This document shows, in pieces, positions 6,799 through 61,714 of a stretch of DNA of 64,000 nucleotides (positions are counted from its first letter, which is position 1; each line of letters opens with the position of its first letter). Below the pieces are notes generated by a model that saw nothing but the letters and a program-made list of their open reading frames with translations, did no database searches and was not told where the DNA came from. The DNA lies in sequence record OP870147.1; one strand, written 5' to 3'. Source of the stretch: Escherichia phage vB_Eco_F31. Both the position numbers and the translations under genes were made by a program.

Positions 6799-6825
6799 AA
6801 TATTCTCCTCTTGTTTTGATAGGTC

Positions 6826-7380: not shown

Positions 7381-7406
7381 ATTATTCTCCTCTGGTTGAT
7401 ATGGAT

Positions 7407-7436
7407 ATAATATCAAAACCGGAGGAGAAGTAAACA
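7407..7436 (-). promoter_or_regulatory. early promoter GTTTAC-N17-TATTAT
   Basis: Minus strand GTTTAC + 17 nt + TATTAT upstream of ORF 6856-7380. Confidence 0.5.
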
Positions 7437-8910: not shown

Positions 8911-8942
8911 AATGTTTTTTCCTGTTTGGTTAAGATAGAAAG

Positions 8943-8973
8943 ATTATACTCCAACCATCCTTGGTTGTAAACT
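8943..8973 (-). repeat. repeated early promoter cassette (copy 1), PeSL-like
   Basis: attatactccaaccatccttggttgta identical to copies near 50750 and 51770; GTTTAC-N17-GTATAAT on the minus strand. Confidence 0.55.
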
Positions 8974-12035: not shown

Positions 12036-12084
12036 AATATTTTCCTCTGTCTTACGGACGTTAAGGTCATTTAGCTGATAAGTC

Positions 12085-12114
12085 TATAATATCATGCCCT
12101 CAGGTAGTGTACAC
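12085..12114 (-). promoter_or_regulatory. early promoter upstream of srd
   Basis: Minus strand GTGTAC-N17-ATTATA-GAC. Confidence 0.4.
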
Positions 12115-13433: not shown

Positions 13434-13460
13434 GATAGACCTCCATTTAAAGATAAGCCT

Positions 13461-13490
13461 ATCATAACACGAGAGGAGGGAATGTAAACT
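13461..13490 (-). promoter_or_regulatory. early promoter upstream of modB
   Basis: Minus strand GTTTAC-N17-TATGAT, then GGAGG RBS. Confidence 0.5.
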
Positions 13491-14912: not shown

Positions 14913-14941
14913 ATTGTTCTCCTCTTGAGTAAGTAAGAATA

Positions 14942-14971
14942 TCTTAACACAGTTTTTAGCGGTTGTAAACT
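14942..14971 (-). promoter_or_regulatory. early promoter (GTTTAC-N17-TAAGAT)
   Basis: Minus strand GTTTAC + 17 + TTAAGAT upstream of ORF 14685-14912. Confidence 0.4.
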
Positions 14972-17165: not shown

Positions 17166-17633
17166 TCACAACTTATTAATATTTACTTTAATTCGCTTTC
17201 TTTTCTTGGAAGGAATTTGTTCTGGACCTTTATTTACGACTGCACCTGTAGTAGTTCCTGATGCAATAGCTTGAGGACTGCCACCTGAATCACCAGCAAC
17301 CATATCCTCAAATAAAGGGAGTTCTTTAAATATTTCTTTCTGCTGTTCTTCAGTAATGTTATAGCGTGAAGCTACAGCACTCCAAGCAGACATCATTGAG
17401 GCCATTCCATTAAGACCTGGAACAGTGCTCATCATTCGCTTCATTGAACGAACTGAAGCATGAAAAGGTGTATAAGCCGCTTTCTCTTCAGGAGTAGAAG
17501 GACGTTTAAGAACACTTCCACGTTCATCGATGATTTTGGCTTCGTATGCTTTCCATTCGGTAAAAGGTTTTTGCATTAGTCGAATAAACTTATATGCGTA
17601 AACAGAATCTATTGCAGTGTTAATAATACCCAT
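17166..17633 (-). CDS. hypothetical protein (61.1 position)
   Basis: about 155 aa from MGIINTAIDS, which has an AGGAGG RBS. Confidence 0.45.
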   Translation of the reverse strand: MGIINTAIDSVYAYKFIRLMQKPFTEWKAYEAKIIDERGSVLKRPSTPEEKAAYTPFHASVRSMKRMMSTVPGLNGMASMMSAWSAVASRYNITEEQQKEIFKELPLFEDMVAGDSGGSPQAIASGTTTGAVVNKGPEQIPSKKRKRIKVNINKL

Positions 17634-17652
17634 AGGTACCTCCTGAGTATAT

Positions 17653-17850
17653 TTAATCAATTACAAAGATTGCTTTGTCACCATTTATATCTGTGACTTC
17701 ATATGTAGTGCCTTCATACTGTGGAATATTCCAAATTACACCATCATTAGCTTTTACGCTAATATGGCATTGGTGTTTTGAAACAACTTCATAATCTTCA
17801 AAACTTGTAAAAACACTAATTTTAGAACCAGTGCAAATTGCAGTAGTCAT
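17653..17850 (-). CDS. small hypothetical protein
   Basis: 65-aa ORF, tightly packed. Confidence 0.35.
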   Translation of the reverse strand: MTTAICTGSKISVFTSFEDYEVVSKHQCHISVKANDGVIWNIPQYEGTTYEVTDINGDKAIFVID

Positions 17851-17851
17851 T

Positions 17852-18511
17852 TTAACCTCGATTCATAAATGCATTAAATATTTGGTCATCAACAGAAATT
17901 TCTAATTCGACTTCAATTGCTTCAGCCTTTTCTTCAGGTGGTAATTCGTATCCACACACTACAATTTTTTCATCGATATCAAAATATACAGAAGCAATAC
18001 GATTAATGTTATTTTCAGTTAAGTCTAAATCAACATCAACATCTTTTTGACCTACACTTAAAGGATAACTAATACGGGTTATTTTATTATCTTTAACAAA
18101 GAGTCCACCAACATACTCTGTACTACGTTTGAAGTTTACACGTTTCCGAAATGAAAGATATGATGCATCTTTACCATGAGCTCGGCTCATAGGACATAAT
18201 GAATAGCTAGAATAAGAGATGTCAAATCCTACACCTTCAATATGAGCCAACGTGTCATGATTAAACCAATTATAATCATACGCCAAATCCATTATATTGT
18301 AATATGTGAAAGGCACAGGATTAACATCATATGTTGTACCTTTAAAATCTGCCCAGGCAACGATTTCGTTATCTTTAACAATTACAAAAATTACACCAAT
18401 ATGGTATCCGTTATTATTTTCATTCGGCGTTATATTATAACATTGTGCATTAGGAAATTTACCATATTTAAATGGTGCGTTTTTGTGCATATAATAAATC
18501 ATATTATTCAC
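17852..18511 (-). CDS. hypothetical protein (61.2 position)
   Basis: 219-aa ORF. Confidence 0.5.
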   Translation of the reverse strand: MNNMIYYMHKNAPFKYGKFPNAQCYNITPNENNNGYHIGVIFVIVKDNEIVAWADFKGTTYDVNPVPFTYYNIMDLAYDYNWFNHDTLAHIEGVGFDISYSSYSLCPMSRAHGKDASYLSFRKRVNFKRSTEYVGGLFVKDNKITRISYPLSVGQKDVDVDLDLTENNINRIASVYFDIDEKIVVCGYELPPEEKAEAIEVELEISVDDQIFNAFMNRG

Positions 18512-18797
18512 CTGTGATTTCGGTTACGATATCTTTGTTATCGAAATTAGGGTCACAATACAAAACATAGTTGTACTGCATGATACCGCCAGACTTAAGT
18601 TGTTCAACAACTTTATTAACCATATTAGGACGGTCTCGTTTAGTGATGTTCATAATATCAGAGAAGATTTGTTGTTCAACATCTTCTTGATTTGCAGTCA
18701 TTGACCACTCACAGAGGTCTTTATCATAACCTGCCGTAACTGGAGCCGGTGCACATGATACTGCAAGTAAGATTGCTGCCAATGATAACTTTTTCAT
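18504..18797 (-). CDS. sp: periplasmic protein with signal peptide, Sp (spackle)-like
   Basis: 97 aa; N-terminal signal peptide (MKKLSLAAILLAVSCAPA); size and position match T4 sp. Confidence 0.5.
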   Translation of the reverse strand: MKKLSLAAILLAVSCAPAPVTAGYDKDLCEWSMTANQEDVEQQIFSDIMNITKRDRPNMVNKVVEQLKSGGIMQYNYVLYCDPNFDNKDIVTEITGE

Positions 18798-18827
18798 TTT
18801 AACTCCTTAGTTGATTTGATAGGACTA

Positions 18828-18857
18828 CTATACTATAGTCCATCTATAATGTAAACA
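18828..18857 (-). promoter_or_regulatory. early promoter upstream of sp
   Basis: Minus strand GTTTAC-N17-TATAGT-AGTCCTATC. Confidence 0.5.
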
Positions 18858-18860
18858 AGT

Positions 18861-19109
18861 TTATTCTTTTTCGCGAATAATAATTACTTGTTGAGGCTGC
18901 TGAGCCGATTTCTTTTCGGCAACGATAGACCAAATTAAAGTTCCAATCCAACCAACCATCGTCCAGTTAAAGAGTAAAGATACAAAGAAGATTGCTGTTG
19001 TGCTTTTTGTGCCACGAATAAGTGCGATTACCCAAGGCAACATGTAAATGATGATTGAACCAATACCTGCGATTAAAACTGCTACTGAACTAGCTACGAA
19101 TAATTCCAT
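18861..19109 (-). CDS. small membrane protein (2 TM)
   Basis: 82 aa, two hydrophobic helices; 61.4 position. Confidence 0.45.
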   Translation of the reverse strand: MELFVASSVAVLIAGIGSIIIYMLPWVIALIRGTKSTTAIFFVSLLFNWTMVGWIGTLIWSIVAEKKSAQQPQQVIIIREKE

Positions 19110-19170
19110 GTTAATTTCCTCTTGATTTGTTATGTTTATAGTATCTTATTTTAACTTTGGTGTAAACCAA

Positions 19171-19539
19171 TTAATTAAATTTGTTTAAACGTTCAATACA
19201 CTGGACGTAGTTATTCGCGATTTGTTTCTGGGTAGGCTCTTTACCAGTTGTTTCAACATAGCGAATGAATGCAATTTCAGTAGCCTGTAGACAATGTTCT
19301 TTAACGCGTTGTTCTTTTGACAATGCTACAGTATCAGAATCACGATAACGTTGAGCATGAGCATCAGCTTGAATCATTCGATTACCTACAGTAACCGGGT
19401 CTTCCACTTCAACTTTAGGTTGGTCGTACTGTTTAACATTCGGATTGTAAATCAGTTGGCCAACGTTATTAGGGATAAAGCCATGGGCACCACATCCGGT
19501 TAATCCAAATACCATTGCTAAAGCGATTAATTTTTTCAT
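19171..19539 (-). CDS. putative lipoprotein
   Basis: 122 aa; signal peptide with lipobox LTGC; no T4 counterpart that I recall. Confidence 0.5.
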   Translation of the reverse strand: MKKLIALAMVFGLTGCGAHGFIPNNVGQLIYNPNVKQYDQPKVEVEDPVTVGNRMIQADAHAQRYRDSDTVALSKEQRVKEHCLQATEIAFIRYVETTGKEPTQKQIANNYVQCIERLNKFN

Positions 19540-19568
19540 TTCAATTTCCTCTGTAGTTGATAGAAAGA

Positions 19569-19598
19569 TAGTAACACAGTATGTGGTGCTTGTAAACA
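19569..19598 (-). promoter_or_regulatory. early promoter upstream of the lipoprotein gene
   Basis: Minus strand GTTTAC-N17-TTACTA. Confidence 0.4.
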
Positions 19599-19610
19599 GT
19601 TATTTTAAAA

Positions 19611-19799
19611 TTATCGAAAATCTGCTTCAAAAACTTTCTCGTCATTAACAAATGCTTTAACTAATGCGTTGTTCACTTCAGCAAGTTGTACCGCAACCCA
19701 CTCGATTTCTTCACGGTCACCTGATAACATGATATCTTTAGTGAACATATTATCATTTTTAAACCAGCCAATAAAAGTAACTTTAGTTAATTTGCTCAT
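19611..19799 (-). CDS. dmd: Dmd antitoxin (discriminator of mRNA degradation)
   Basis: about 62 aa from MSKLTKVTFIGWFKNDNMFTK, matching T4 Dmd as recalled; ATGA-coupled to the upstream ORF. Confidence 0.7.
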   Translation of the reverse strand: MSKLTKVTFIGWFKNDNMFTKDIMLSGDREEIEWVAVQLAEVNNALVKAFVNDEKVFEADFR

Positions 19800-20113
19800 A
19801 TTTCCTCGCAAAATGCCCATTCAGCATGATATACTGTAGCACCTTTAGTATCATTCATTTGAACTACATCTACCGGAGAAATTACTCGATAGAGACGTGG
19901 TTCACCTCCATAAGAGCGTGCTGCTCGTCCTGCATAAATCTTTGCTAAACCGATATCTTCAGTAAAGAATACACGATCCAAGTTTTTCTTACGTCCTGTT
20001 TCAGACAGAACTCCTGTTTCCTCAGGAGGACAAAGCATGTTTTCGATGTTAGCTGAACTACTTGAACCGTGATAAAAAATCTTAAATTCTGCTTTACAAT
20101 CGATGGTTTTCAT
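19796..20113 (-). CDS. hypothetical protein (HGS...Y...Y...E arrangement)
   Basis: 105-aa ORF translationally coupled to dmd; own early promoter. Confidence 0.5.
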   Translation of the reverse strand: MKTIDCKAEFKIFYHGSSSSANIENMLCPPEETGVLSETGRKKNLDRVFFTEDIGLAKIYAGRAARSYGGEPRLYRVISPVDVVQMNDTKGATVYHAEWAFCEEI

Positions 20114-20139
20114 TTTGTTCTCCAGTAGTTGATAGGTCT

Positions 20140-20169
20140 ATAATAACACAACTACTGGAGAAGTAAACT
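20140..20169 (-). promoter_or_regulatory. early promoter upstream of the 105-aa ORF and dmd
   Basis: Minus strand GTTTAC-N17-TATTAT-AGACCTATCAAC; inverted repeat CCAGTAGTT/AACTACTGG around the -10. Confidence 0.55.
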
Positions 20170-20543
20170 TAAAAATGTAATTTAGATACATCTGCGTTGA
20201 TTTCGGTTTGGTTTGCGTCATATGCAATTAAACGAACCGCTTTAGATGGGTCATTCAATGCATAGAAATGATGGAACATTGCTCGAACGATATCACCATT
20301 TACGAGTTCTACCTGGATAGGAGAACCTTTTTCGAGTTGGAAATGTTCATAAGCTTTGATGGTTCGTAGATAATCAAGTTTTTGATTTCCAGCTCCAACA
20401 ATTTGTACGATACGTTTGCCCATGTTTTCCATACGAGATACAATAGTTTTAGGAGCAAGAATAACGTAGGTTGCCAGCGGAGAAACTACTTCAACAGTTG
20501 TGTTTTCGGTGATTGCAGTAAAAATTGCTTGAGACATATTCAT
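20169..20543 (-). CDS. hypothetical protein
   Basis: 124-aa ORF between gene 41 and dmd. Confidence 0.5.
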   Translation of the reverse strand: MNMSQAIFTAITENTTVEVVSPLATYVILAPKTIVSRMENMGKRIVQIVGAGNQKLDYLRTIKAYEHFQLEKGSPIQVELVNGDIVRAMFHHFYALNDPSKAVRLIAYDANQTEINADVSKLHF

Positions 20544-20573
20544 AATGTTTTCCTCTTGGTTGGTGTAAGTACA

Positions 20574-20603
20574 TCATATCATGCCTAGAGGAAGATGTAA
20601 ACC
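20574..20603 (-). promoter_or_regulatory. early promoter downstream of gene 41
   Basis: Minus strand GTTTAC-N17-ATATGA immediately after the UUCG hairpin. Confidence 0.35.
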
Positions 20604-20606
20604 CCT

Positions 20607-20628
20607 AAAGGAGACCGAAGTCTCCTTT
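20607..20628 (-). terminator. stable UUCG hairpin downstream of gene 41 (terminator or RNA stability element)
   Basis: AAAGGAGAC-TTCG-GTCTCCTTT; no U-run on the minus strand, so function uncertain. Confidence 0.35.
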
Positions 20629-20630
20629 CA

Positions 20631-22073
20631 TTAAAATTTTAACTCGTTGGCTAAGCTATCTAGGTCAGCACGTGTTGCTTTGGCTTTACCTACGCGTTCC
20701 GTACGATTCACCTCTGCCTGACGCATCTGAGCACCTGCGTTTTCATTTACTGTGTTAGGTGTGTTCATGCCTTCTTGCTCAATCTCAATCCATTTCTGGT
20801 TGCCTTTACGTACACCCATCAGGAATTTATTCCACTTATTCTTATCACCATATCGTGATTTGATTTGTTTGATAAGTTGTTGTTCAGCTTGTGCAAGTTC
20901 TTCGGTTTCAATTACAGCCAACATGAAATCTGCCGTTGCTGGTAAACCTGCTGATTCTGCAATATCGCTCATGTTCATATCCGAAGCATCCCATGCTGCA
21001 CGTCCTACTTGAGCTGCAGTCCATAGAACTGTTTCAGATTCTACTGCTAATGCACGAAGTTCTTCTGCGATAGCTTTAACTAATGTGTAGCTATTTTCAG
21101 TGTAAACTCTGATACGACAAGACCCACAAATACCTAAGTAATCAACCATGATTACAGATGGAACAAAGTTCTTCTTAAGTTTTAACTCATTAAGCAATGC
21201 ACGGAATGTATTAGCATTAGCTCCGCCAGTAGGATACTGCTTAACTACTAAACGTCCTAATGTTGTTTTTGAACGCCATTTTTCCATCTTGGCTTTATAT
21301 TCAGCATAAGATACGTTACCATCATCAATATCATCGAGTGATACGTCAAGCATGTTTGCATCTATACGCTTAGCACAAACTTCTTCAGCCATTTCCATGG
21401 AAATATAAAGAACATTATGACCTGTTTGAAGATAATCTGCAGCAAGTGAACAAAGGCCTAAAGATTTACCGACGTTAACACCAGCCATTAAAACGTTTAG
21501 TGTACCTGTTTCAGCACCACCTTTAGTGATTTTATTCAAAATGTTTAATTTGAACGGGACCTTACGTGCTTTATTTAGATAAGAAAGCCAGCGTGCTTCG
21601 TAGTCTTCCATCCAGTCATGTCCAACATAACTATCGAACGAAATTGAAAGTGCTTGACGCATAATATCAGGAATAGCTCCTACGTCAGGCATTTTCTTGT
21701 TACGTTGTTCTGGAGGTAGTTCAGCATTAGACTGAATCTCAATGATTTTGGACGTAGCATTATACATCGCTTTTTGCTGGACATATTTCTCAGTTTCTTT
21801 AACCAACCATTCGTGGTCTTCAGGAGTATCAGCCAATTTTTCAATTAGGTCTGAAGTTCCTTTATATTCGGCTTCAGTTAAAGAACTGTTATCTAAAGCC
21901 ACCTTTAACGCATTGATAGATGGCATTGCATTATATTCGTTAACGTGGCTCTTTATAATTTTAAAGACATTTTTTGCCGGTCCACGCTCAAAATACTCAG
22001 AATCCATATAAGGCCAGACCTTAGAAAAATAAGCCTGGTCATATACTAGATGAGACAAAATAATTTCTACCAC
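20631..22073 (-). CDS. 41: replicative DNA helicase gp41 (DnaB-like)
   Basis: 480 aa; Walker A GVNVGKS; near-colinear with T4 gp41 as recalled. Confidence 0.9.
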   Translation of the reverse strand: MVEIILSHLVYDQAYFSKVWPYMDSEYFERGPAKNVFKIIKSHVNEYNAMPSINALKVALDNSSLTEAEYKGTSDLIEKLADTPEDHEWLVKETEKYVQQKAMYNATSKIIEIQSNAELPPEQRNKKMPDVGAIPDIMRQALSISFDSYVGHDWMEDYEARWLSYLNKARKVPFKLNILNKITKGGAETGTLNVLMAGVNVGKSLGLCSLAADYLQTGHNVLYISMEMAEEVCAKRIDANMLDVSLDDIDDGNVSYAEYKAKMEKWRSKTTLGRLVVKQYPTGGANANTFRALLNELKLKKNFVPSVIMVDYLGICGSCRIRVYTENSYTLVKAIAEELRALAVESETVLWTAAQVGRAAWDASDMNMSDIAESAGLPATADFMLAVIETEELAQAEQQLIKQIKSRYGDKNKWNKFLMGVRKGNQKWIEIEQEGMNTPNTVNENAGAQMRQAEVNRTERVGKAKATRADLDSLANELKF

Positions 22074-22082
22074 GATAACTCC

Positions 22083-22424
22083 TTAAAAGAATTTAAATTT
22101 TTTCTTGGTCCGTTCATTAAAAGCTTGTTGTACTTGCATTGTAACACATTTTTCAACATGTGGTGCAAGTTCTGCTTTTCTGTCCTGGTCAAGAACTGCA
22201 AAGTCCATTACGATTTTACCATCAACCCAGTCTAGTTTTGTAATATAGACTATATGATGGGAACCGTCTTCAAGTGTAATCAGAATCTCTTGAATGACAT
22301 TTTCCATTGCTGAACGGACAATTTTAAGAGATTCATTAAACACTCGTTCTTTGCGAATGTCTTCCCCTTCCGAAGAAGGGGATTCATCAACGATTTCTAG
22401 ATTTAAATCATCGAGATTATTCAT
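22083..22424 (-). CDS. 40: gp40-like head assembly protein
   Basis: about 113 aa from MNNLDDLNLEIV; between 41 and uvsX as in T4. Confidence 0.5.
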   Translation of the reverse strand: MNNLDDLNLEIVDESPSSEGEDIRKERVFNESLKIVRSAMENVIQEILITLEDGSHHIVYITKLDWVDGKIVMDFAVLDQDRKAELAPHVEKCVTMQVQQAFNERTKKKFKFF

Positions 22425-23589
22425 CGAAATCTTCCATTTCGTCAAGGTCGTTTTCTATATCTGCTGCAGACGGAGCATCAGAAGTTTTAACCGGAACTTT
22501 AGTTGTTGCTTTGCAATTAATAAGGTCGTTAACAGCGTCATCAACTTCTTTAATAGAAGAGATAGCACCTAGTTTATATTTAGTTTCAATTGCATCTCGG
22601 AAAGGTTTGTGTTTAAACAACGGTCCCCAGAATTCTACACAATCAGTAGCTTTAGCACGCCATGATTTTTCTTCACGAATCATTTCGCCTGTTTCTTCGT
22701 CAAGGAATTCGCGAGCATACCACCCGGCTTTAGGCTTAACTACAAAACCAATTTCAGTTGCCATTTCTAACAAGCCACTGAACGGGTCGATACCACCATC
22801 GAAATTAACCGTGATCGGGAAAGTAGATTTCTCTTTAACCGTGCGAGATTTTTCTGCTTTCAACGTGAAGTCATAACCGGTCAATTCTGTACCTTCTTTA
22901 ACCTGACGTTTAGAGATAAAGAATACAGTGTTAGCAGAGTAAAGAATACCTGTACCACCACCCATAATCTCTTTAGGATATAGTCCGCCGATTTCCATTG
23001 CTGTATGGTTGATTGCAACACACGGAATATCTTTAATAGTCAGATAAGGAGTCACAATACGGAACAGAGATTTAAGTGCCTTAGCACGAGACATATCACC
23101 TACGACTTTCTCGTTCAATGCATCTTCGGTTTCTTTCTTAGATGCAGTATTACCGATTGAATCGATAAAGATAATAACTTTATCACCCCGTTCAATCGCG
23201 TCAAGCTGATTAGTCATATCAACTTTAAGTTGTTCGACGGATTGAATCGGAGTATGAACTACACGGTCTAAATCAACACCCATTGAACGAAAATAAGATT
23301 CTGAAGCACCGAATTCCGAATCATAGAACAAACAGATTGCATCTTTATATTTCTTCATATATGCTGCAACCATGGTCAGTCCAAACAATGTTTTAAAATG
23401 TTTAGAAGGTGCAGCAAAAATAGTCAAGCCTGATTGCAATCCTGCATTCAGAGCACCACCTAGTGCGATATTCAACATCGGAATACGAGTAGGGACTTCA
23501 TCACGATTATTAAACAGCTTAGACTTAGTCAAGTCTGCAGTCATTTTAGAAGTAGAAGCTTTAATCAGACGAGATTTTAAATCAGACAT
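22417..23589 (-). CDS. uvsX: UvsX recombinase (RecA-like)
   Basis: 390 aa; RecA fold motifs; acidic C-terminus; T4 UvsX is 391 aa. Confidence 0.85.
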   Translation of the reverse strand: MSDLKSRLIKASTSKMTADLTKSKLFNNRDEVPTRIPMLNIALGGALNAGLQSGLTIFAAPSKHFKTLFGLTMVAAYMKKYKDAICLFYDSEFGASESYFRSMGVDLDRVVHTPIQSVEQLKVDMTNQLDAIERGDKVIIFIDSIGNTASKKETEDALNEKVVGDMSRAKALKSLFRIVTPYLTIKDIPCVAINHTAMEIGGLYPKEIMGGGTGILYSANTVFFISKRQVKEGTELTGYDFTLKAEKSRTVKEKSTFPITVNFDGGIDPFSGLLEMATEIGFVVKPKAGWYAREFLDEETGEMIREEKSWRAKATDCVEFWGPLFKHKPFRDAIETKYKLGAISSIKEVDDAVNDLINCKATTKVPVKTSDAPSAADIENDLDEMEDFDE

Positions 23590-40421: not shown

Positions 40422-40631
40422 TTATCTCATTAAATTAAAATAAAAACGTCCATCCTCTTCAATACAGAACTCATATTCAACTGGAGTCCCGTTTATCGAA
40501 AATGACACGTCATGTGGGTTCAAAGGGTCGATGTCAAAATTAATTTTAAATTCACGACCCAACAGTTTTACCAAATAAGGGATTGCTTCGTCAAAAGGTT
40601 CTTCTAAGTAGTTAGAGATGTCAATTGTCAT
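40422..40631 (-). CDS. small hypothetical protein
   Basis: about 69 aa from MTIDISNY; start chosen just downstream of the gp55 stop. Confidence 0.35.
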
Positions 40632-41178
40632 CCTCATATAAAAAATCCAAACTAGGCGAATCGCTAACAACTTCCTTCTTTTCAGCCCCAGGAGCTTTAT
40701 AAGCGGATTCTTCATAATGCGTCATTTTATCGTAGATGTCTTGAATAAACGTTTCATCTACCAACGCTACCATATCATCGTCATGACTGTCGTAGACATT
40801 ATGAACGAAGTAACTATATTTCTTTGCAACTTCCTTACGTTCTTTTTTGATACGTTGGACAAAAGCATTAAAACAAGCTCGAGTTATGTATGCATGTGGG
40901 TTATTGTACTTAGTTTCGTCGAAATTATGAAGTCCCTTAATAGAGGCTTCAATCCCATCTGCAATCATCTCCTGCTTCCAAGACTGGGTATATCCTGAAA
41001 AGTTGAAACGTTTGGACAGGCCTTCGGCGATAAGCATAATTGCTAAACCGATGGTATCATTCTGACGAATAATTTTGTTTGGGTCTTTATTATTTAAGAG
41101 CTCCTTTTTCCACTCGATTATAGCAGCGAGAAGCTCTTTGTTATTCACATAGTTATTTTTAGGTTTTTGTTCAGTCAT
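40621..41178 (-). CDS. 55: late-transcription sigma factor gp55
   Basis: 185 aa from [17 protein letters not shown], near-colinear with T4 gp55 as recalled. Confidence 0.85.
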
Positions 41179-41204
41179 AAGTACCTCTTGGCTCAATTCA
41201 TAGG

Positions 41205-41245
41205 TCTATTATATCATAATATTTAGAGACCTATCTTAAAGCACG
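41205..41245 (-). promoter_or_regulatory. promoter upstream of gene 55 (MotA-box-like TGCTTTAAG plus TATTAT/TATAAT)
   Basis: Minus strand cgTGCTTTAAG - 13 nt - TATTAT, then TATAATAGACCTAT; inverted repeat TAGGTCT/AGACCTA. Confidence 0.4.
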
Positions 41246-42379: not shown

Positions 42380-42442
42380 GATATTTTCCTCATTTTAAGA
42401 CGATAGGAAGATAATAACATGTCTTCCTATCGTTGTACATTA

Positions 42443-43510: not shown

Positions 43511-43538
43511 TTTGTTTTCCTCTATAGCAGATGGTTTA

Positions 43539-43567
43539 ATCTTAACATATCTATCGAGGATGTAAAC
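43539..43567 (-). promoter_or_regulatory. early promoter (GTTTAC-N17-TAAGAT)
   Basis: Minus strand GTTTAC + 17 + TAAGAT upstream of ORF 43328-43510. Confidence 0.4.
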
Positions 43568-50720: not shown

Positions 50721-50749
50721 AATATTTTCCTCTCGTTAAGATAAATTCA

Positions 50750-50778
50750 TTATACTCCAACCATCCTTGGTTGTAAAC
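50750..50778 (-). repeat. repeated early promoter cassette (copy 2), PeSL-like
   Basis: attatactccaaccatccttggttgtaaac; GTTTAC-N17-GTATAAT on the minus strand upstream of ORF 49770-50720. Confidence 0.55.
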
Positions 50779-53383: not shown

Positions 53384-53410
53384 GTTTTACCTCCAGTAGT
53401 TGATAGGTCT

Positions 53411-53439
53411 ATAATAACATAACCATAGACCTTGTAAAC
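53411..53439 (-). promoter_or_regulatory. early promoter GTTTAC-N17-TATTAT-AGACCTATC
   Basis: Inverted repeat AGGTCTAT/ATAGACCT flanks the -10; upstream of ORF 52856-53383. Confidence 0.55.
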
Positions 53440-54868: not shown

Positions 54869-54885
54869 TTCGTTTCGATAGGTCT

Positions 54886-54914
54886 ATAATAACATATCCT
54901 AAAAGCATGTACAC
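54886..54914 (-). promoter_or_regulatory. early promoter GTGTAC-N17-TATTAT-AGACCTATC
   Basis: Upstream of the P-loop ATPase gene. Confidence 0.5.
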
Positions 54915-57445: not shown

Positions 57446-57581
57446 TTTACCATACTCGTTTCAATAAGATTCACTATGCCGTTTACCATGTTATAAGTAA
57501 ACATCGGATAATTGTATTGTACTACAACATAAGCGATAAGCAAAAGTTTCATTTTGTTCTCCGTTTGTTTTGATAGGACTA

Positions 57582-57610
57582 CTATAACATAGTCCTACCA
57601 AGATGTAAAC
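57582..57610 (-). promoter_or_regulatory. early promoter GTTTAC-N17-TTATAG-AGTCCTATC
   Basis: Perfect 8-bp inverted repeat TAGGACTA/TAGTCCTA around the -10. Confidence 0.5.
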
Positions 57611-61657: not shown

Positions 61658-61685
61658 TTTGATTTCTCCTCTAGTTGACAGGTCT

Positions 61686-61714
61686 ATAGTAACACAACTA
61701 GAGGAGAAGTAAAC
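61686..61714 (-). promoter_or_regulatory. early promoter upstream of regB
   Basis: Minus strand GTTTAC-N17-TACTAT-AGACCTGTCAACTAGAGGAG; inverted repeat CTCTAGTTG/CAACTAGAG. Confidence 0.55.

What the first reader, a model, noticed from the sequence alone, without database searches (positions are those of the whole stretch)
20131..20168. Conserved extended -10 / initial-transcribed motif with dyad symmetry in many early promoters
Most early-type promoters here share on the minus strand GTTTAC-N17-TATTAT followed directly by AGACCTATCAAC (variant AGTCCTATC). This is seen near 6819, 18820, 20131, 41200, 53400, 54880, 57570, 58020 and 61670. In several copies the -10 is enclosed by an 8-9 bp inverted repeat, for example TAGGACTA/TAGTCCTA at 57575-57598 and CCAGTAGTT/AACTACTGG at 20121-20160. 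The symmetry suggests a binding site for a dimeric regulator or a DNA hairpin.
Basis: seen in the sequence. Interest (0 to 1): 0.5.

Follow-up and report, generated by a model that had tools for sequence, protein, structure and literature searches.

The report
Hairpin-embedded early promoters of a T4-like phage
The motif is the well-known strong early promoter of T4-type phages, and its "dyad" is a promoter-specific, co-varying complementarity between the promoter spacer and the gene's own leader, which most likely forms an RNA hairpin only in transcripts that read through from upstream.

Summary
The window is the first 64 kb of a Tequatrovirus (T4-like) genome. The site at 20131-20168 (minus strand) is one of 19 T4-type sigma-70 early promoters found here. 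All 19 are on the minus strand; none was found on the plus strand or in shuffles. The block after the -10 (AGACCT|ATCAAC) is the discriminator plus the first transcribed bases. It is really conserved, but the exact composite motif occurs in only 2-3 of the 19.

The dyad is real and larger than reported: 14/14 bp, TTCTCCAGTAGTTG (20149-20162) with CAACTACTGGAGAA (20118-20131). The 3' arm contains the Shine-Dalgarno GGAG.

About a quarter of early promoters in this window, in T4 and in 46 other T4-like loci carry such a stem. The arm sequences differ between promoters but co-vary within each. Mismatches are mostly G·U on the sense strand. Strong stems are absent where an intrinsic terminator lies just upstream, and absent at 53 mapped T4 middle promoters.

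This argues against a dimeric-regulator operator. It favours an RNA hairpin that forms only in read-through transcripts, because the start site lies inside the stem. At the focal copy the hairpin would hide the ribosome-binding site. The function is inferred, not shown. Closest relatives: PeSL cassettes and the T4 e/soc/49/I-TevI hairpins.

The parts
20169..20171 (-). Stop codon TAA of the upstream ORF (20169-20543, phrog_10668, unknown function), directly abutting the -35
20163..20168 (-). -35 element GTTTAC of the focal early promoter
20149..20162 (-). 5' arm of the dyad, TTCTCCAGTAGTTG. It lies in the promoter spacer, upstream of the inferred start site
20147..20148 (-). TG of the extended -10 (positions -15/-14)
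20140..20145 (-). -10 element TATTAT, in the loop of the hairpin
20134..20139 (-). Discriminator AGACCT (-6 to -1)
20133..20133 (-). Inferred transcription start (A of ATCAAC), 7 nt after the -10. In T4 the same rule gives 133295 for the promoter that the record names Pe133295
   Evidence: inference
20118..20131 (-). 3' arm of the dyad, CAACTACTGGAGAA. It includes the Shine-Dalgarno GGAG (20120-20123)
19796..20113 (-). Downstream ORF (105 aa, phrog_2110, unknown function; ATG at 20111-20113), followed by dmd (19611-19820)
61664..61714 (-). Early promoter with a 14/14 spacer/SD dyad, TTCTCCTCTAGTTG / CAACTAGAGGAGAA
58008..58059 (-). Early promoter with the dyad TTCTCCTC / GAGGAGAA and an intrinsic terminator just upstream
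57570..57610 (-). Early promoter with a -10-centred dyad, TTGGTAGGACTA / TAGTCCTATCAA (one G·U)
54870..54914 (-). Early promoter (GTGTAC -35) with AGACCTATC and no significant dyad
53396..53439 (-). Early promoter that shares 29 identical nt with the focal copy, but whose spacer pairs with a different part of it (AGGTCTAT / ATAGACCT)
50734..50778 (-). Early promoter. Its spacer holds its own small hairpin; the core is identical to the promoter at 8948
43518..43567 (-). Early promoter with the dyad TCCTCGATAG / CTATAGAGGA (9/10, includes the SD)
42400..42440 (-). Early promoter (ATGTAC -35) with a 12/12 dyad around the -10, ACGATAGGAAGA / TCTTCCTATCGT
41199..41240 (-). -10 TATAAT plus AGACCTATG with the dyad ATAGGTCT / AGACCTAT but no GTTTAC -35. 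Not an early promoter by the matrix
20550..20602 (-). Early promoter upstream of ORF 20169-20543, the likely source of read-through into the focal site. Dyad TTCCTCTAGG / CCAAGAGGAA (9/10); terminator hairpin just upstream
19553..19597 (-). Early promoter, no significant dyad
19123..19167 (-). Early promoter, no significant dyad
18812..18856 (-). Early promoter upstream of the spackle-like ORF; dyad GGACTA / TAGTCC plus flanks
14926..14970 (-). Early promoter with an upstream intrinsic terminator and no dyad
13440..13489 (-). Early promoter with a short CCTCC / GGAGG complementarity
12071..12114 (-). Early promoter (GTGTAC -35) with AGACTTATC and no significant dyad
8927..8972 (-). Early promoter with the same 30-nt core as the promoter at 50754
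7385..7435 (-). Early promoter with a 12/13 spacer/SD dyad, TTCTCCTCCGGTT / AACCAGAGGAGAA
6812..6856 (-). Early promoter (ATGTAC -35) with AGACCTATC and a weak bulged dyad

Best explanation
The site is a T4-type early promoter read by host sigma-70 RNA polymerase. It has an A/T-rich upstream region, -35 GTTTAC, a 17-nt spacer ending in TG, and -10 TATTAT. It is packed into the 57 bp between the stop codon of one small early ORF and the start codon of the next.

AGACCT is the discriminator. ATCAAC... is the start of the mRNA.

The dyad is not a protein operator. The spacer (5' arm) is complementary to the gene's own leader (3' arm). Transcription from this promoter starts between the arms, so its own mRNA lacks the 5' arm and has an open ribosome-binding site. 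RNA arriving from the promoter about 430 nt upstream (20578) contains both arms. That RNA folds into a 14-bp hairpin that buries GGAG.

The likely consequence is that the downstream ORF (followed by dmd) is translated, and its GGAG exposed to RegB, mainly on promoter-proximal transcripts. This would insulate each promoter+ORF cassette from transcription entering from outside.

Shown: promoter identity by sequence, the complementarity, its statistical excess, covariation, sense-strand G·U bias, exclusivity with upstream terminators, and absence at middle promoters.

Inferred: the start site, that the hairpin forms in vivo, and its effect on translation or decay.
For: Identity. The region is 98% identical to Tequatrovirus genomes. 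Nineteen matrix hits are all on the coding strand and upstream of an SD+ATG. The published description of T4 early promoters fits: UP/-35/TGn/-10 with 'additional regions of consensus' (PMC2988021; PMC1524935).

Focal fold. Read-through RNA has MFE -22.1 kcal/mol, z=-3.5, with a 14-bp stem that includes GGAG. The promoter's own transcript has -1.0 kcal/mol, z=+1. The SD..AUG unpaired probability is 0.48 for the own transcript, 0.23 for read-through RNA, and 0.46 for read-through RNA carrying foreign spacers.

Cognate excess (a spacer paired with its own leader against other promoters' leaders):
- window: -11.7 against -8.5 kcal/mol
- T4: -13.3 against -8.0 (each p=2e-5)
- 93 non-redundant promoters from 46 IMG/VR loci: 13% at or below -18 kcal/mol against 0.4%
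- non-redundant set, n=118, at least 10 Watson-Crick pairs: 15-fold excess for -10-centred stems and 5.6-fold for SD-containing stems.

Covariation.
- G-C / G·U / A-U series occur in orthologous promoters.
- Among 33 promoters sharing TAYTAT-AGACCTATCAAC, the spacer follows the variable leader: CTACTGGAGA with TCTCCAGTAG, CTACAGGAGA with TCTCCTGTAG, CTAATGGAGA with TCTCCATTAG; p=5e-5.
- The count of structure pairs on 86 unselected promoters gives covariation 0.259 against 0.198±0.011 in shuffles (0/500) and 0.13-0.17 when slid.

Sense-strand signature. G·U:A·C is 17:3 against 94:113 in chance stems, Fisher p=7e-4.

Read-through link. 0 of 15 promoters with an upstream intrinsic terminator have a dyad at or below -16 kcal/mol, against 32 of 103 without one (p=0.010). 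No terminator-like site lies between promoter 20578 and the focal site.

Specificity. The 53 mapped T4 middle promoters show no excess: -6.48 against -6.39, p=0.38.

Start-site rule. The name Pe133295 in the T4 record matches the coordinate -10+7.
Against: No experiment was possible. The start site, RNA folding in vivo and any translational effect are inferred.

Across all 125 promoters tested, SD..AUG accessibility in read-through RNA is no lower with the cognate spacer than with foreign spacers: 0.436 against 0.428, p=0.27. SD occlusion therefore cannot be the general function. It applies to the SD-containing class, which includes the focal copy.

The more common -10-centred class ends a few nt before the SD, and its effect on translation is unclear.

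In the window alone, sense-strand stability does not exceed antisense (8 against 11 promoters).

Only about 25-30% of early promoters carry a strong stem.

The G·U and terminator counts are small and the promoters are phylogenetically related.

The 5' arm starts 6-7 nt after the upstream stop codon. A terminating ribosome might partly open the stem, which would give coupling rather than a block.
Confidence: 0.5

Rival explanations
1. The nested hairpin acts on the upstream transcript rather than on downstream translation. It would be an attenuator, a pause site or a 3'-end stabiliser for RNA coming from the previous cassette, i.e. the stem-loop component of a PeSL 'promoter-terminator' cassette. 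It would stand in for the canonical terminator found upstream of other early promoters.
For: Strong dyads and upstream intrinsic terminators are mutually exclusive: 0/15 against 32/103. The 5' arm begins a median of about 10 nt after the upstream stop codon, just beyond a terminating ribosome. The -10-centred class does not cover the SD. In RB49/phi1, stem-loops between or overlapping the -35 and -10 were described, and one reduced lacZ expression like a strong terminator (PMC2839356).
Against: None of the stems is followed by a U-tract, and the terminator scan reports none at the focal site. SD-containing stems have loops of about 17-21 nt, which is unlike terminators. Among promoters sharing AGACCTATCAAC, the spacer specifically tracks the SD-proximal leader. 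That specificity is not needed for a generic 3' hairpin.
Confidence: 0.2
2. The dyads have no function. They would be by-products of quasi-palindrome templated mutation (strand-switch 'correction' of imperfect palindromes, classically described in T4), seeded by the small palindrome built into the extended -10 consensus, and of copying of promoter cassettes.
For: The innermost pairs are consensus-level (-15 T with -8 A; -16 R with -7 T). 22 of 47 stems share one register centred between -12 and -11. Promoter cassettes share long identical blocks, and apparent recombinants exist. The T4 record notes that the loop of one such dyad was once reported in inverted orientation.
Against: Templated correction gives perfect Watson-Crick pairs on both strands. 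The observed mismatches are G·U on the sense strand (17:3, against 94:113 in same-composition chance stems). SD-containing stems are not seeded by the -10 palindrome yet are 5-12-fold enriched. T4 middle promoters use the same -10/TGn and show no excess. The model predicts no relation to upstream terminators, but one is seen.
Confidence: 0.12
3. A DNA-level structure (cruciform or single-strand hairpin) at the promoter modulates promoter activity, for example early-promoter shut-off, or serves as a hotspot for recombination between cassettes.
For: Stems centred on the -10 with loops of about 6 nt could extrude. The PeSL authors proposed that stem-loops may be targets for recombination proteins (PMC2839356). 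The mechanism of early-promoter shut-off is unknown (PMC2988021).
Against: A cruciform needs both strands to pair, and A·C on the antisense arm would destabilise it; the mismatch bias is strand-specific. SD-containing stems have loops of about 20 nt, which is unfavourable for extrusion. Only about a quarter of early promoters have a stem, so it cannot be a general shut-off device. The exclusivity with upstream terminators is not predicted.
Confidence: 0.1
4. The inverted repeat is an operator for a dimeric phage or host regulator that overlaps the -10.
For: The dyad symmetry encloses the -10. A weakly conserved core (TAGG...CCTA) is present in some -10-centred copies.
Against: Arm sequences differ almost completely between promoters and co-vary. 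Registers and arm spacing differ, with loops of 6 to 21 nt. The conserved part of the 3' arm (CTATC) is also present in promoters with no 5' complement.
Confidence: 0.03

Closest known systems
Bacteriophage T4 early promoters (sigma-70 'UP/-35/TGn/-10' promoters; Liebig & Rüger, Wilkens & Rüger and Miller et al. 2003 as cited in PMC2988021 and PMC1524935)
   Same: -35 GTTTAC, 17-18 nt spacer, TGn, -10 TAnnnT, A/T-rich upstream region, conserved bases around +1, all upstream of small early ORFs on one strand. The matrix built on the window also finds 28 sites in T4, all on the early-gene strand.
   Different: The window's subfamily prefers TATTAT + AGACCTATC, where T4 prefers TACTAT + ACAACTATC. 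The reviews read here mention 'additional regions of consensus' but not spacer/leader complementarity.
PeSL (promoter-early stem-loop) cassettes of T4-like phages (Arbiol et al. 2010, PMC2839356; Comeau et al. 2014, PMC4122927)
   Same: A composite intergenic module: AT-rich region, sigma-70 early promoter, stem-loop, SD and ATG, next to variable small ORFs. In RB49/phi1 some stem-loops lie between the -35 and -10 or overlap the -10. Relative to T4, the window has three extra promoter+ORF cassettes between gene 41 and sp.
   Different: For the T4/PST group the published stem-loops are drawn 'just upstream of the promoter' (AGNA-loop-TCNT), which matches the intrinsic terminators seen here upstream of some -35s. 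The dyads described here pair the spacer with the leader or SD, lack U-tracts, and are found where those terminators are absent.
T4 translation-blocking leader hairpins with an internal promoter (genes e, soc, 49, I-TevI; PMC3014915)
   Same: The SD is buried in a helix whose 5' strand lies upstream of a promoter-proximal start site. Long upstream transcripts are therefore silent and promoter-proximal transcripts are open. The focal copy has the same geometry.
   Different: In the known cases a late promoter sits inside the hairpin, and the hairpin prevents premature expression from early read-through. Here the internal promoter is an early one, and the 5' arm is the promoter's own spacer. No experimental proof exists for these early-promoter hairpins.
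IS10/Tn10 'fold-back inhibition' of read-in transcripts (Davis, Simons & Kleckner 1985; recalled from memory, not checked here)
   Same: A mobile module protects itself from outside transcription. Read-in RNA contains a segment complementary to the RBS, and RNA from the element's own promoter starts downstream of that segment.
   Different: It is a different element and host context with no sequence relationship. This is an analogy of logic only.

Membership tests
T4-type early promoter | -35 GTTTAC-like hexamer, 17±1 nt spacer, -10 TAnnnT | tested here: met
   GTTTAC-N17-TATTAT at 20140-20168(-). 19 sites pass the matrix, against 0 on the other strand and 0 in shuffles.
T4-type early promoter | Extended -10 TGn and an A/T-rich (UP-like) region upstream of the -35 | tested here: met
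   TG at -15/-14. -14 G carries 1.7 bits in the window set. The upstream 25 nt are about 80% A/T.
T4-type early promoter | Located upstream of, and co-oriented with, an early gene that has an SD and start codon | tested here: met
   GGAG and ATG lie 10-20 nt downstream. The ORF (phrog_2110) is followed by dmd.
T4-type early promoter | Active immediately after infection with unmodified host RNA polymerase; mapped 5' end | not testable with these tools
   The start site is inferred from the sigma-70 spacing rule. The rule reproduces the name Pe133295 in the T4 record.
PeSL cassette | Composite of early promoter, stem-loop, SD and ATG in one short intergenic space | tested here: met
   All elements lie within 20111-20171.
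PeSL cassette | Association with variable ORFs and indels between close relatives | tested here: met
   The window carries extra promoter+ORF units between gene 41 and sp that T4 lacks. Apparent chimeric spacer/leader combinations occur in relatives.
PeSL cassette | The stem-loop works as a transcription terminator or attenuator | tested here: inconclusive
   There is no U-tract after the stem, and the stem is not called by the terminator scan. However, strong stems are exclusive with upstream canonical terminators. Function cannot be tested here.
RBS-sequestering leader hairpin with internal promoter (T4 e/soc/49/I-TevI type) | The SD and/or AUG is base-paired in the long transcript | tested here: met
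   GGAG (20120-20123) lies inside the 14-bp stem; MFE -22.1 kcal/mol, z=-3.5. This holds for the SD-containing class only, not for all early promoters.
RBS-sequestering leader hairpin with internal promoter (T4 e/soc/49/I-TevI type) | The promoter-proximal transcript starts inside the hairpin and lacks the 5' strand | tested here: met
   The inferred +1 at 20133 lies between the arms. The promoter's own transcript is unstructured, -1.0 kcal/mol. The start site itself is inferred.
RBS-sequestering leader hairpin with internal promoter (T4 e/soc/49/I-TevI type) | Demonstrated reduction of translation from the long transcript | not testable with these tools
   Needs reporter fusions or ribosome profiling.
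Operator of a dimeric DNA-binding regulator | Conserved half-site sequence at fixed spacing across regulated promoters | tested here: not met
   Arm sequences and spacing differ between promoters, and the arms co-vary instead.
Rfam RNA families | Match to a curated covariance model | tested here: not met
   No hit at gathering threshold anywhere in the window.

The most novel reading that the evidence does not exclude
Spacer-leader complementarity would be a selected RNA device used by roughly a quarter of early promoters across T4-like phages to tell promoter-proximal transcripts from read-through transcripts. Each early promoter+ORF cassette would carry its own 'fold-back' insulator, with the 5' arm hidden in the otherwise unconstrained promoter spacer. 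Expression of the ORF (translation, RegB access, decay) would then be set by its own promoter wherever the cassette lands. This would extend the e/soc/49/I-TevI principle from a few late-promoter cases to the early class. It would also give the shuffling of PeSL cassettes a functional logic similar to IS10 fold-back inhibition.
Probability: 0.35. Interest if true: 0.55.

Novelty: new variant of a known kind. Interest (0 to 1): 0.4.

Why it matters
The promoters themselves are textbook. What may be new is that the spacer, usually treated as free sequence, is used in many T4-type early promoters to encode the complement of the gene's own leader.

If that reading is right, transcripts of the same gene would behave differently depending on where they started. 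That would help explain how dozens of tandem, very strong early promoters avoid cumulative over-expression of downstream genes. It would also help explain why some GGAG sites escape RegB, and how promoter+ORF cassettes stay autonomous when shuffled between phages.

It has a practical side as well. The design rule, with the 5' arm in the spacer and the start site inside the stem, is simple enough to reuse in synthetic constructs. It should also be considered when engineering T4-like therapeutic phages.

Tried and rejected
1. SD occlusion as the general role of the dyad. Rejected as a general explanation: over 125 promoters, SD..AUG accessibility in read-through RNA is the same with cognate and foreign spacers (0.436 against 0.428, p=0.27). 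Kept only for the SD-containing class, which includes the focal copy.

2. Canonical intrinsic terminator. Rejected: there is no U-tract and the terminator scan does not call it.

3. Equating the dyad with the published T4/PST PeSL stem-loop. Rejected: that one (AGNA-loop-TCNT, 'just upstream of the promoter') matches the upstream terminators, not the spacer/leader dyad.

4. A generic property of T4 promoters or an artefact of the method. Rejected: the 53 mapped middle promoters show no cognate excess.

5. Translational coupling through a terminating ribosome. The 5' arm starts 5-16 nt after the upstream stop codon, so a ribosome would reach only the base of the stem. Left as a sub-variant, not supported.

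6. Known RNA family. No Rfam hit.

7. Literature. Searches for T4 early promoters with dyad symmetry or inverted repeats returned only the PeSL papers and reviews. Miller et al. 2003 was not available. A search for T4 start-site and terminator maps found nothing usable.

8. Sense against antisense stability in the window alone showed no bias (8:11). The bias appears in T4 (21:6) and in the mismatch census.
Full report
WHAT THE WINDOW IS. A 3-kb query around the site is 98% identical over its full length to many Escherichia/Shigella Tequatrovirus genomes. Gene order matches the first 64 kb of the T4 map, with genes on the minus strand: uvsX, 40 and 41, then small early ORFs, dmd and sp. Relative to T4, the stretch between gene 41 and sp holds three extra small ORFs, each with its own promoter.

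CHECK OF THE OBSERVATION. On the minus strand the focal sequence reads TAA GTTTAC ttctccagtagttgtgt TATTAT agacct ATCAACTACTGGAGAAcaaaATG.
- GTTTAC-N16-18-TATTAT occurs 3 times against 0.06 expected.
- TATTATAGACCTATC with up to 3 mismatches occurs 14 times against 2.55 expected, 13 of them on the minus strand.
- An iterated weight matrix finds 19 sites on the minus strand, none on the plus strand and none in five shuffles. Each lies 20-45 nt upstream of an SD+ATG.
- Information content after the -10 is real. In the window, -3 C has 1.4 bits, -1 T 1.4, +1 A 1.1 and +3 C 1.8, against 1.6 for the invariant -10 positions. It is weaker in T4 and weak (0.3-0.6 bits) in diverse relatives.

The exact composite is in 2 promoters, plus 54891, which has GTGTAC as its -35. 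About 8-9 of 19 are within 1-2 mismatches of AGACCTATC or AGTCCTATC. The copy 'near 41200' has the -10, AGACCTATG and a dyad, but no GTTTAC -35.

THE DYAD IS LARGER THAN REPORTED AND IS PROMOTER-SPECIFIC. At the focal site the whole 5' part of the spacer, TTCTCCAGTAGTTG (20149-20162), is the perfect complement of CAACTACTGGAGAA (20118-20131), which contains the SD GGAG. Nine of the 19 promoters have at least 8 Watson-Crick pairs between spacer and downstream sequence. There are two geometries.
- Class I is centred on the -10. Examples are 42416, ACGATAGGAAGA/TCTTCCTATCGT, and 57586, TTGGTAGGACTA/TAGTCCTATCAA.
- Class II pairs the -35-proximal spacer with the SD region. Examples are 20145, 61691, 7412, 58036 and 43544.

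The promoters at 20145 and 53416 share 29 identical nucleotides, TGTTATTATAGACCTATCAACTACTGGAG. Their spacers nevertheless pair with different parts of that block.

To control for composition and consensus, I compared each spacer with its own downstream sequence and with those of all other promoters.
- Window: -11.7 against -8.5 kcal/mol, p=2e-5.
- T4 (28 promoters found with the window's matrix): -13.3 against -8.0, p=2e-5.
- 46 T4-like IMG/VR loci recovered with gp41 (61-99% identity; 178 promoter hits on the sense strand, 0 antisense; 93 non-redundant): 13% of cognate pairs at or below -18 kcal/mol against 0.4% of non-cognate pairs.
- Non-redundant set of 118: stems of at least 10 Watson-Crick pairs are 15-fold (class I) and 5.6-fold (class II) more frequent in cognate than in non-cognate pairs.

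COVARIATION. Arm sequences differ widely, for example GGTGTAGAAGT/ACTTCTACACC, TTGGTAGGGCT/AGCCCTACCA and ATGGGAACATCA/GATGTTCCCAT. Orthologous promoters show stepwise series.
- At Pdmd one pair is G-C in T4, G·U in L006 and A-U in L008.
- L016, L019 and L018 show the same G-C, G·U, A-U path.

A scan of viral contigs for promoters that keep TAYTAT-AGACCTATCAAC gave 33 distinct spacer/leader combinations. The spacer follows the variable part of the leader:
- CTACTGGAGA with TCTCCAGTAG
- CTACAGGAGA with TCTCCTGTAG
- CTAATGGAGA with TCTCCATTAG
- GGAGGT with ATCTCC, through a G·U pair.

Using only sequence outside the shared block, cognate pairs give -9.8 against -7.3 kcal/mol for non-cognate pairs, p=5e-5.

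Class I stems in promoters with 18-nt spacers have one dominant register, with the axis between -12 and -11. Eighteen of 86 non-redundant promoters have at least 8 consecutive pairs there, against 0-3 in any other register. On the same unselected alignment, the count of structure pairs gives:
- 52.8% paired, against 48.0±0.9 in shuffles (0/500)
- covariation 0.259, against 0.198±0.011 in shuffles (0/500) and 0.13-0.17 for slid partners.

The innermost pairs are consensus-level (-15 T with -8 A; -16 R with -7 T). The extended -10 therefore carries a small built-in palindrome.

RNA OR DNA, AND WHICH STRAND. In stems scored on Watson-Crick pairs only, internal mismatches are G·U 17, A·C 3 and other 9. 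Chance stems from the same sequences give 94, 113 and 336 (binomial p=0.0026; Fisher p=7e-4; 14:3 after collapsing related stems). In T4 the sense strand pairs better than the antisense strand in 21 promoters against 6. In the window alone there is no bias, 8 against 11. This points to pairing of the sense strand as a single strand, which most simply means RNA.

WHY ONLY READ-THROUGH RNA. With the usual sigma-70 spacing, +1 is the A at 20133. The same rule reproduces the coordinate in the name 'Pe133295' that the T4 record gives one of these promoters. The 5' arm is therefore never part of the promoter's own transcript.

Folding gives a 14-bp stem for RNA that spans the promoter (-22.1 kcal/mol, z=-3.5). 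The transcript from +1 is essentially unstructured (-1.0 kcal/mol). The nearest upstream promoter is at 20578. No terminator-like site lies between it and the focal site.

Two observations link the stems to read-through and to the early class.
- None of the 15 non-redundant promoters with an intrinsic terminator just upstream has a dyad at or below -16 kcal/mol, against 32 of 103 without one (p=0.010).
- The 53 experimentally mapped T4 middle promoters (PMC2988021, Table 1) show no cognate excess: -6.48 against -6.39, p=0.38, and none at or below -14.

WHAT IT PROBABLY DOES, AND THE LIMITS. For the focal copy the simplest reading is that translation of the phrog_2110 ORF (followed by dmd) is favoured on promoter-proximal RNA. 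On read-through RNA it would be hindered, and GGAG would be shielded from RegB. SD..AUG unpaired probability is 0.48 for the own transcript, 0.23 for read-through RNA and 0.46 for read-through RNA with foreign spacers.

This cannot be the general function. Over 125 promoters, cognate and foreign spacers give the same SD accessibility in read-through RNA (0.436 against 0.428, p=0.27). Class I stems end a few nucleotides before the SD.

The upstream stop codon usually ends at -2 or +1 of the -35 (74 of 183 promoters). The 5' arm starts a median of about 10 nt after it, just beyond a terminating ribosome. That position would also suit a role on the upstream transcript, as an attenuator or 3'-end stabiliser, as proposed for PeSL stem-loops. 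I rank that second.

A neutral origin by quasi-palindrome templated mutation fits the fixed register and the palindromic seed. It does not fit the G·U bias, the enrichment of class II, the absence at middle promoters or the terminator exclusivity.

A dimeric-regulator operator is contradicted by the lack of any shared half-site.

COMPARISON WITH WHAT IS KNOWN. The promoters are standard T4 early promoters (PMC2988021, PMC1524935). Composite early promoter/stem-loop cassettes (PeSLs) are published.
- In RB49/phi1, stem-loops can lie between the -35 and -10 or overlap the -10 (PMC2839356).
- For the T4/PST group the published stem-loops are drawn just upstream of the promoter (AGNA-loop-TCNT). 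That corresponds to the terminators I see upstream of some -35 elements, not to the spacer/leader dyads (PMC4122927).

The functional logic is known in T4 for genes e, soc, 49 and I-TevI, where a late promoter sits inside an SD-sequestering hairpin (PMC3014915). From memory, it is also known for IS10 fold-back inhibition. I found no paper in the searchable library that describes spacer/leader complementarity at T-even early promoters. Older subscription literature, including Miller et al. 2003, could not be read, so prior description cannot be excluded.

VERDICT. The promoter identification is correct and ordinary. The operator idea is not supported. The hairpin idea is supported in a modified form: sense-strand RNA, read-through transcripts only. 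The covariation signal is robust and replicated in three sequence sets with a negative control. The function remains inferred.

Noticed in passing
window 41199-41240 (-): A -10 TATAAT followed by AGACCTATG and enclosed by the dyad ATAGGTCT/AGACCTAT, but with no GTTTAC -35. A MotA-box-like TGCTTTA lies 23 nt upstream of the -10, too far for a standard middle promoter. The ATG at 41177 that follows is in frame with the ORF listed at 40621-41196 from an upstream TTG; I took this to be gene 55 from its map position and did not check it. The site may be a degraded or converted early-promoter cassette.
   Followed up: partly
L004 14301-14314 (T4 NC_000866 133300-133313): The T4 record carries a note: 'inverted complement of previously reported sequence; corrects the early promoter Pe133295'. 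That 14-nt segment is exactly the loop (with the -10) between the dyad arms GGTAGAG and CTCTACC. The loop was therefore once reported flipped, either as a sequencing artefact at a hairpin or as a real inversion between the arms.
   Followed up: partly
window 8943-8972 and 50749-50778 (-): Two promoters 42 kb apart share an identical 30-nt core, GTTTACAACCAAGGATGGTTGGAGTATAAT. Its spacer contains its own small hairpin (AACCA-agga-TGGTT), a different stem-loop placement from the spacer/leader dyads.
   Followed up: no
window, T4 and IMG/VR loci L005-L050 (183 promoters): The stop codon of the upstream ORF ends at position -2 or +1 relative to the first base of the -35 in 74 of 183 cases, for example TAG overlapping GTTTAC. 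The promoter, hairpin, SD and ATG thus fill almost the whole intergenic space.
   Followed up: partly
window 18500-20602 compared with L001 (T4 17500-23000): Between gene 41 and sp the window has three promoter+ORF units absent from T4 (ORFs 20169-20543, 19796-20113 and 19171-19539; PHROGs of unknown function). This is the kind of cassette indel attributed to PeSL shuffling.
   Followed up: partly
L051-L084 (IMG/VR): One promoter combines the spacer ATCTCCATTAG, which is complementary to the leader CTAATGGAGAT found elsewhere, with the leader CTACTGGAGGTT. This weakens the stem to -11.6 kcal/mol. It looks like a recombinant between two cassettes with the crossover near the -10.
   Followed up: no
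window 20603-20630 (-): A canonical terminator hairpin with a UUCG-type loop (GGAGACttcgGTCTCC followed by TTT) lies between the end of gene 41 and the -35 of promoter 20578. Similar terminators precede promoters 58036 and 14946. These match the published T4/PST PeSL stem-loops.
   Followed up: partly
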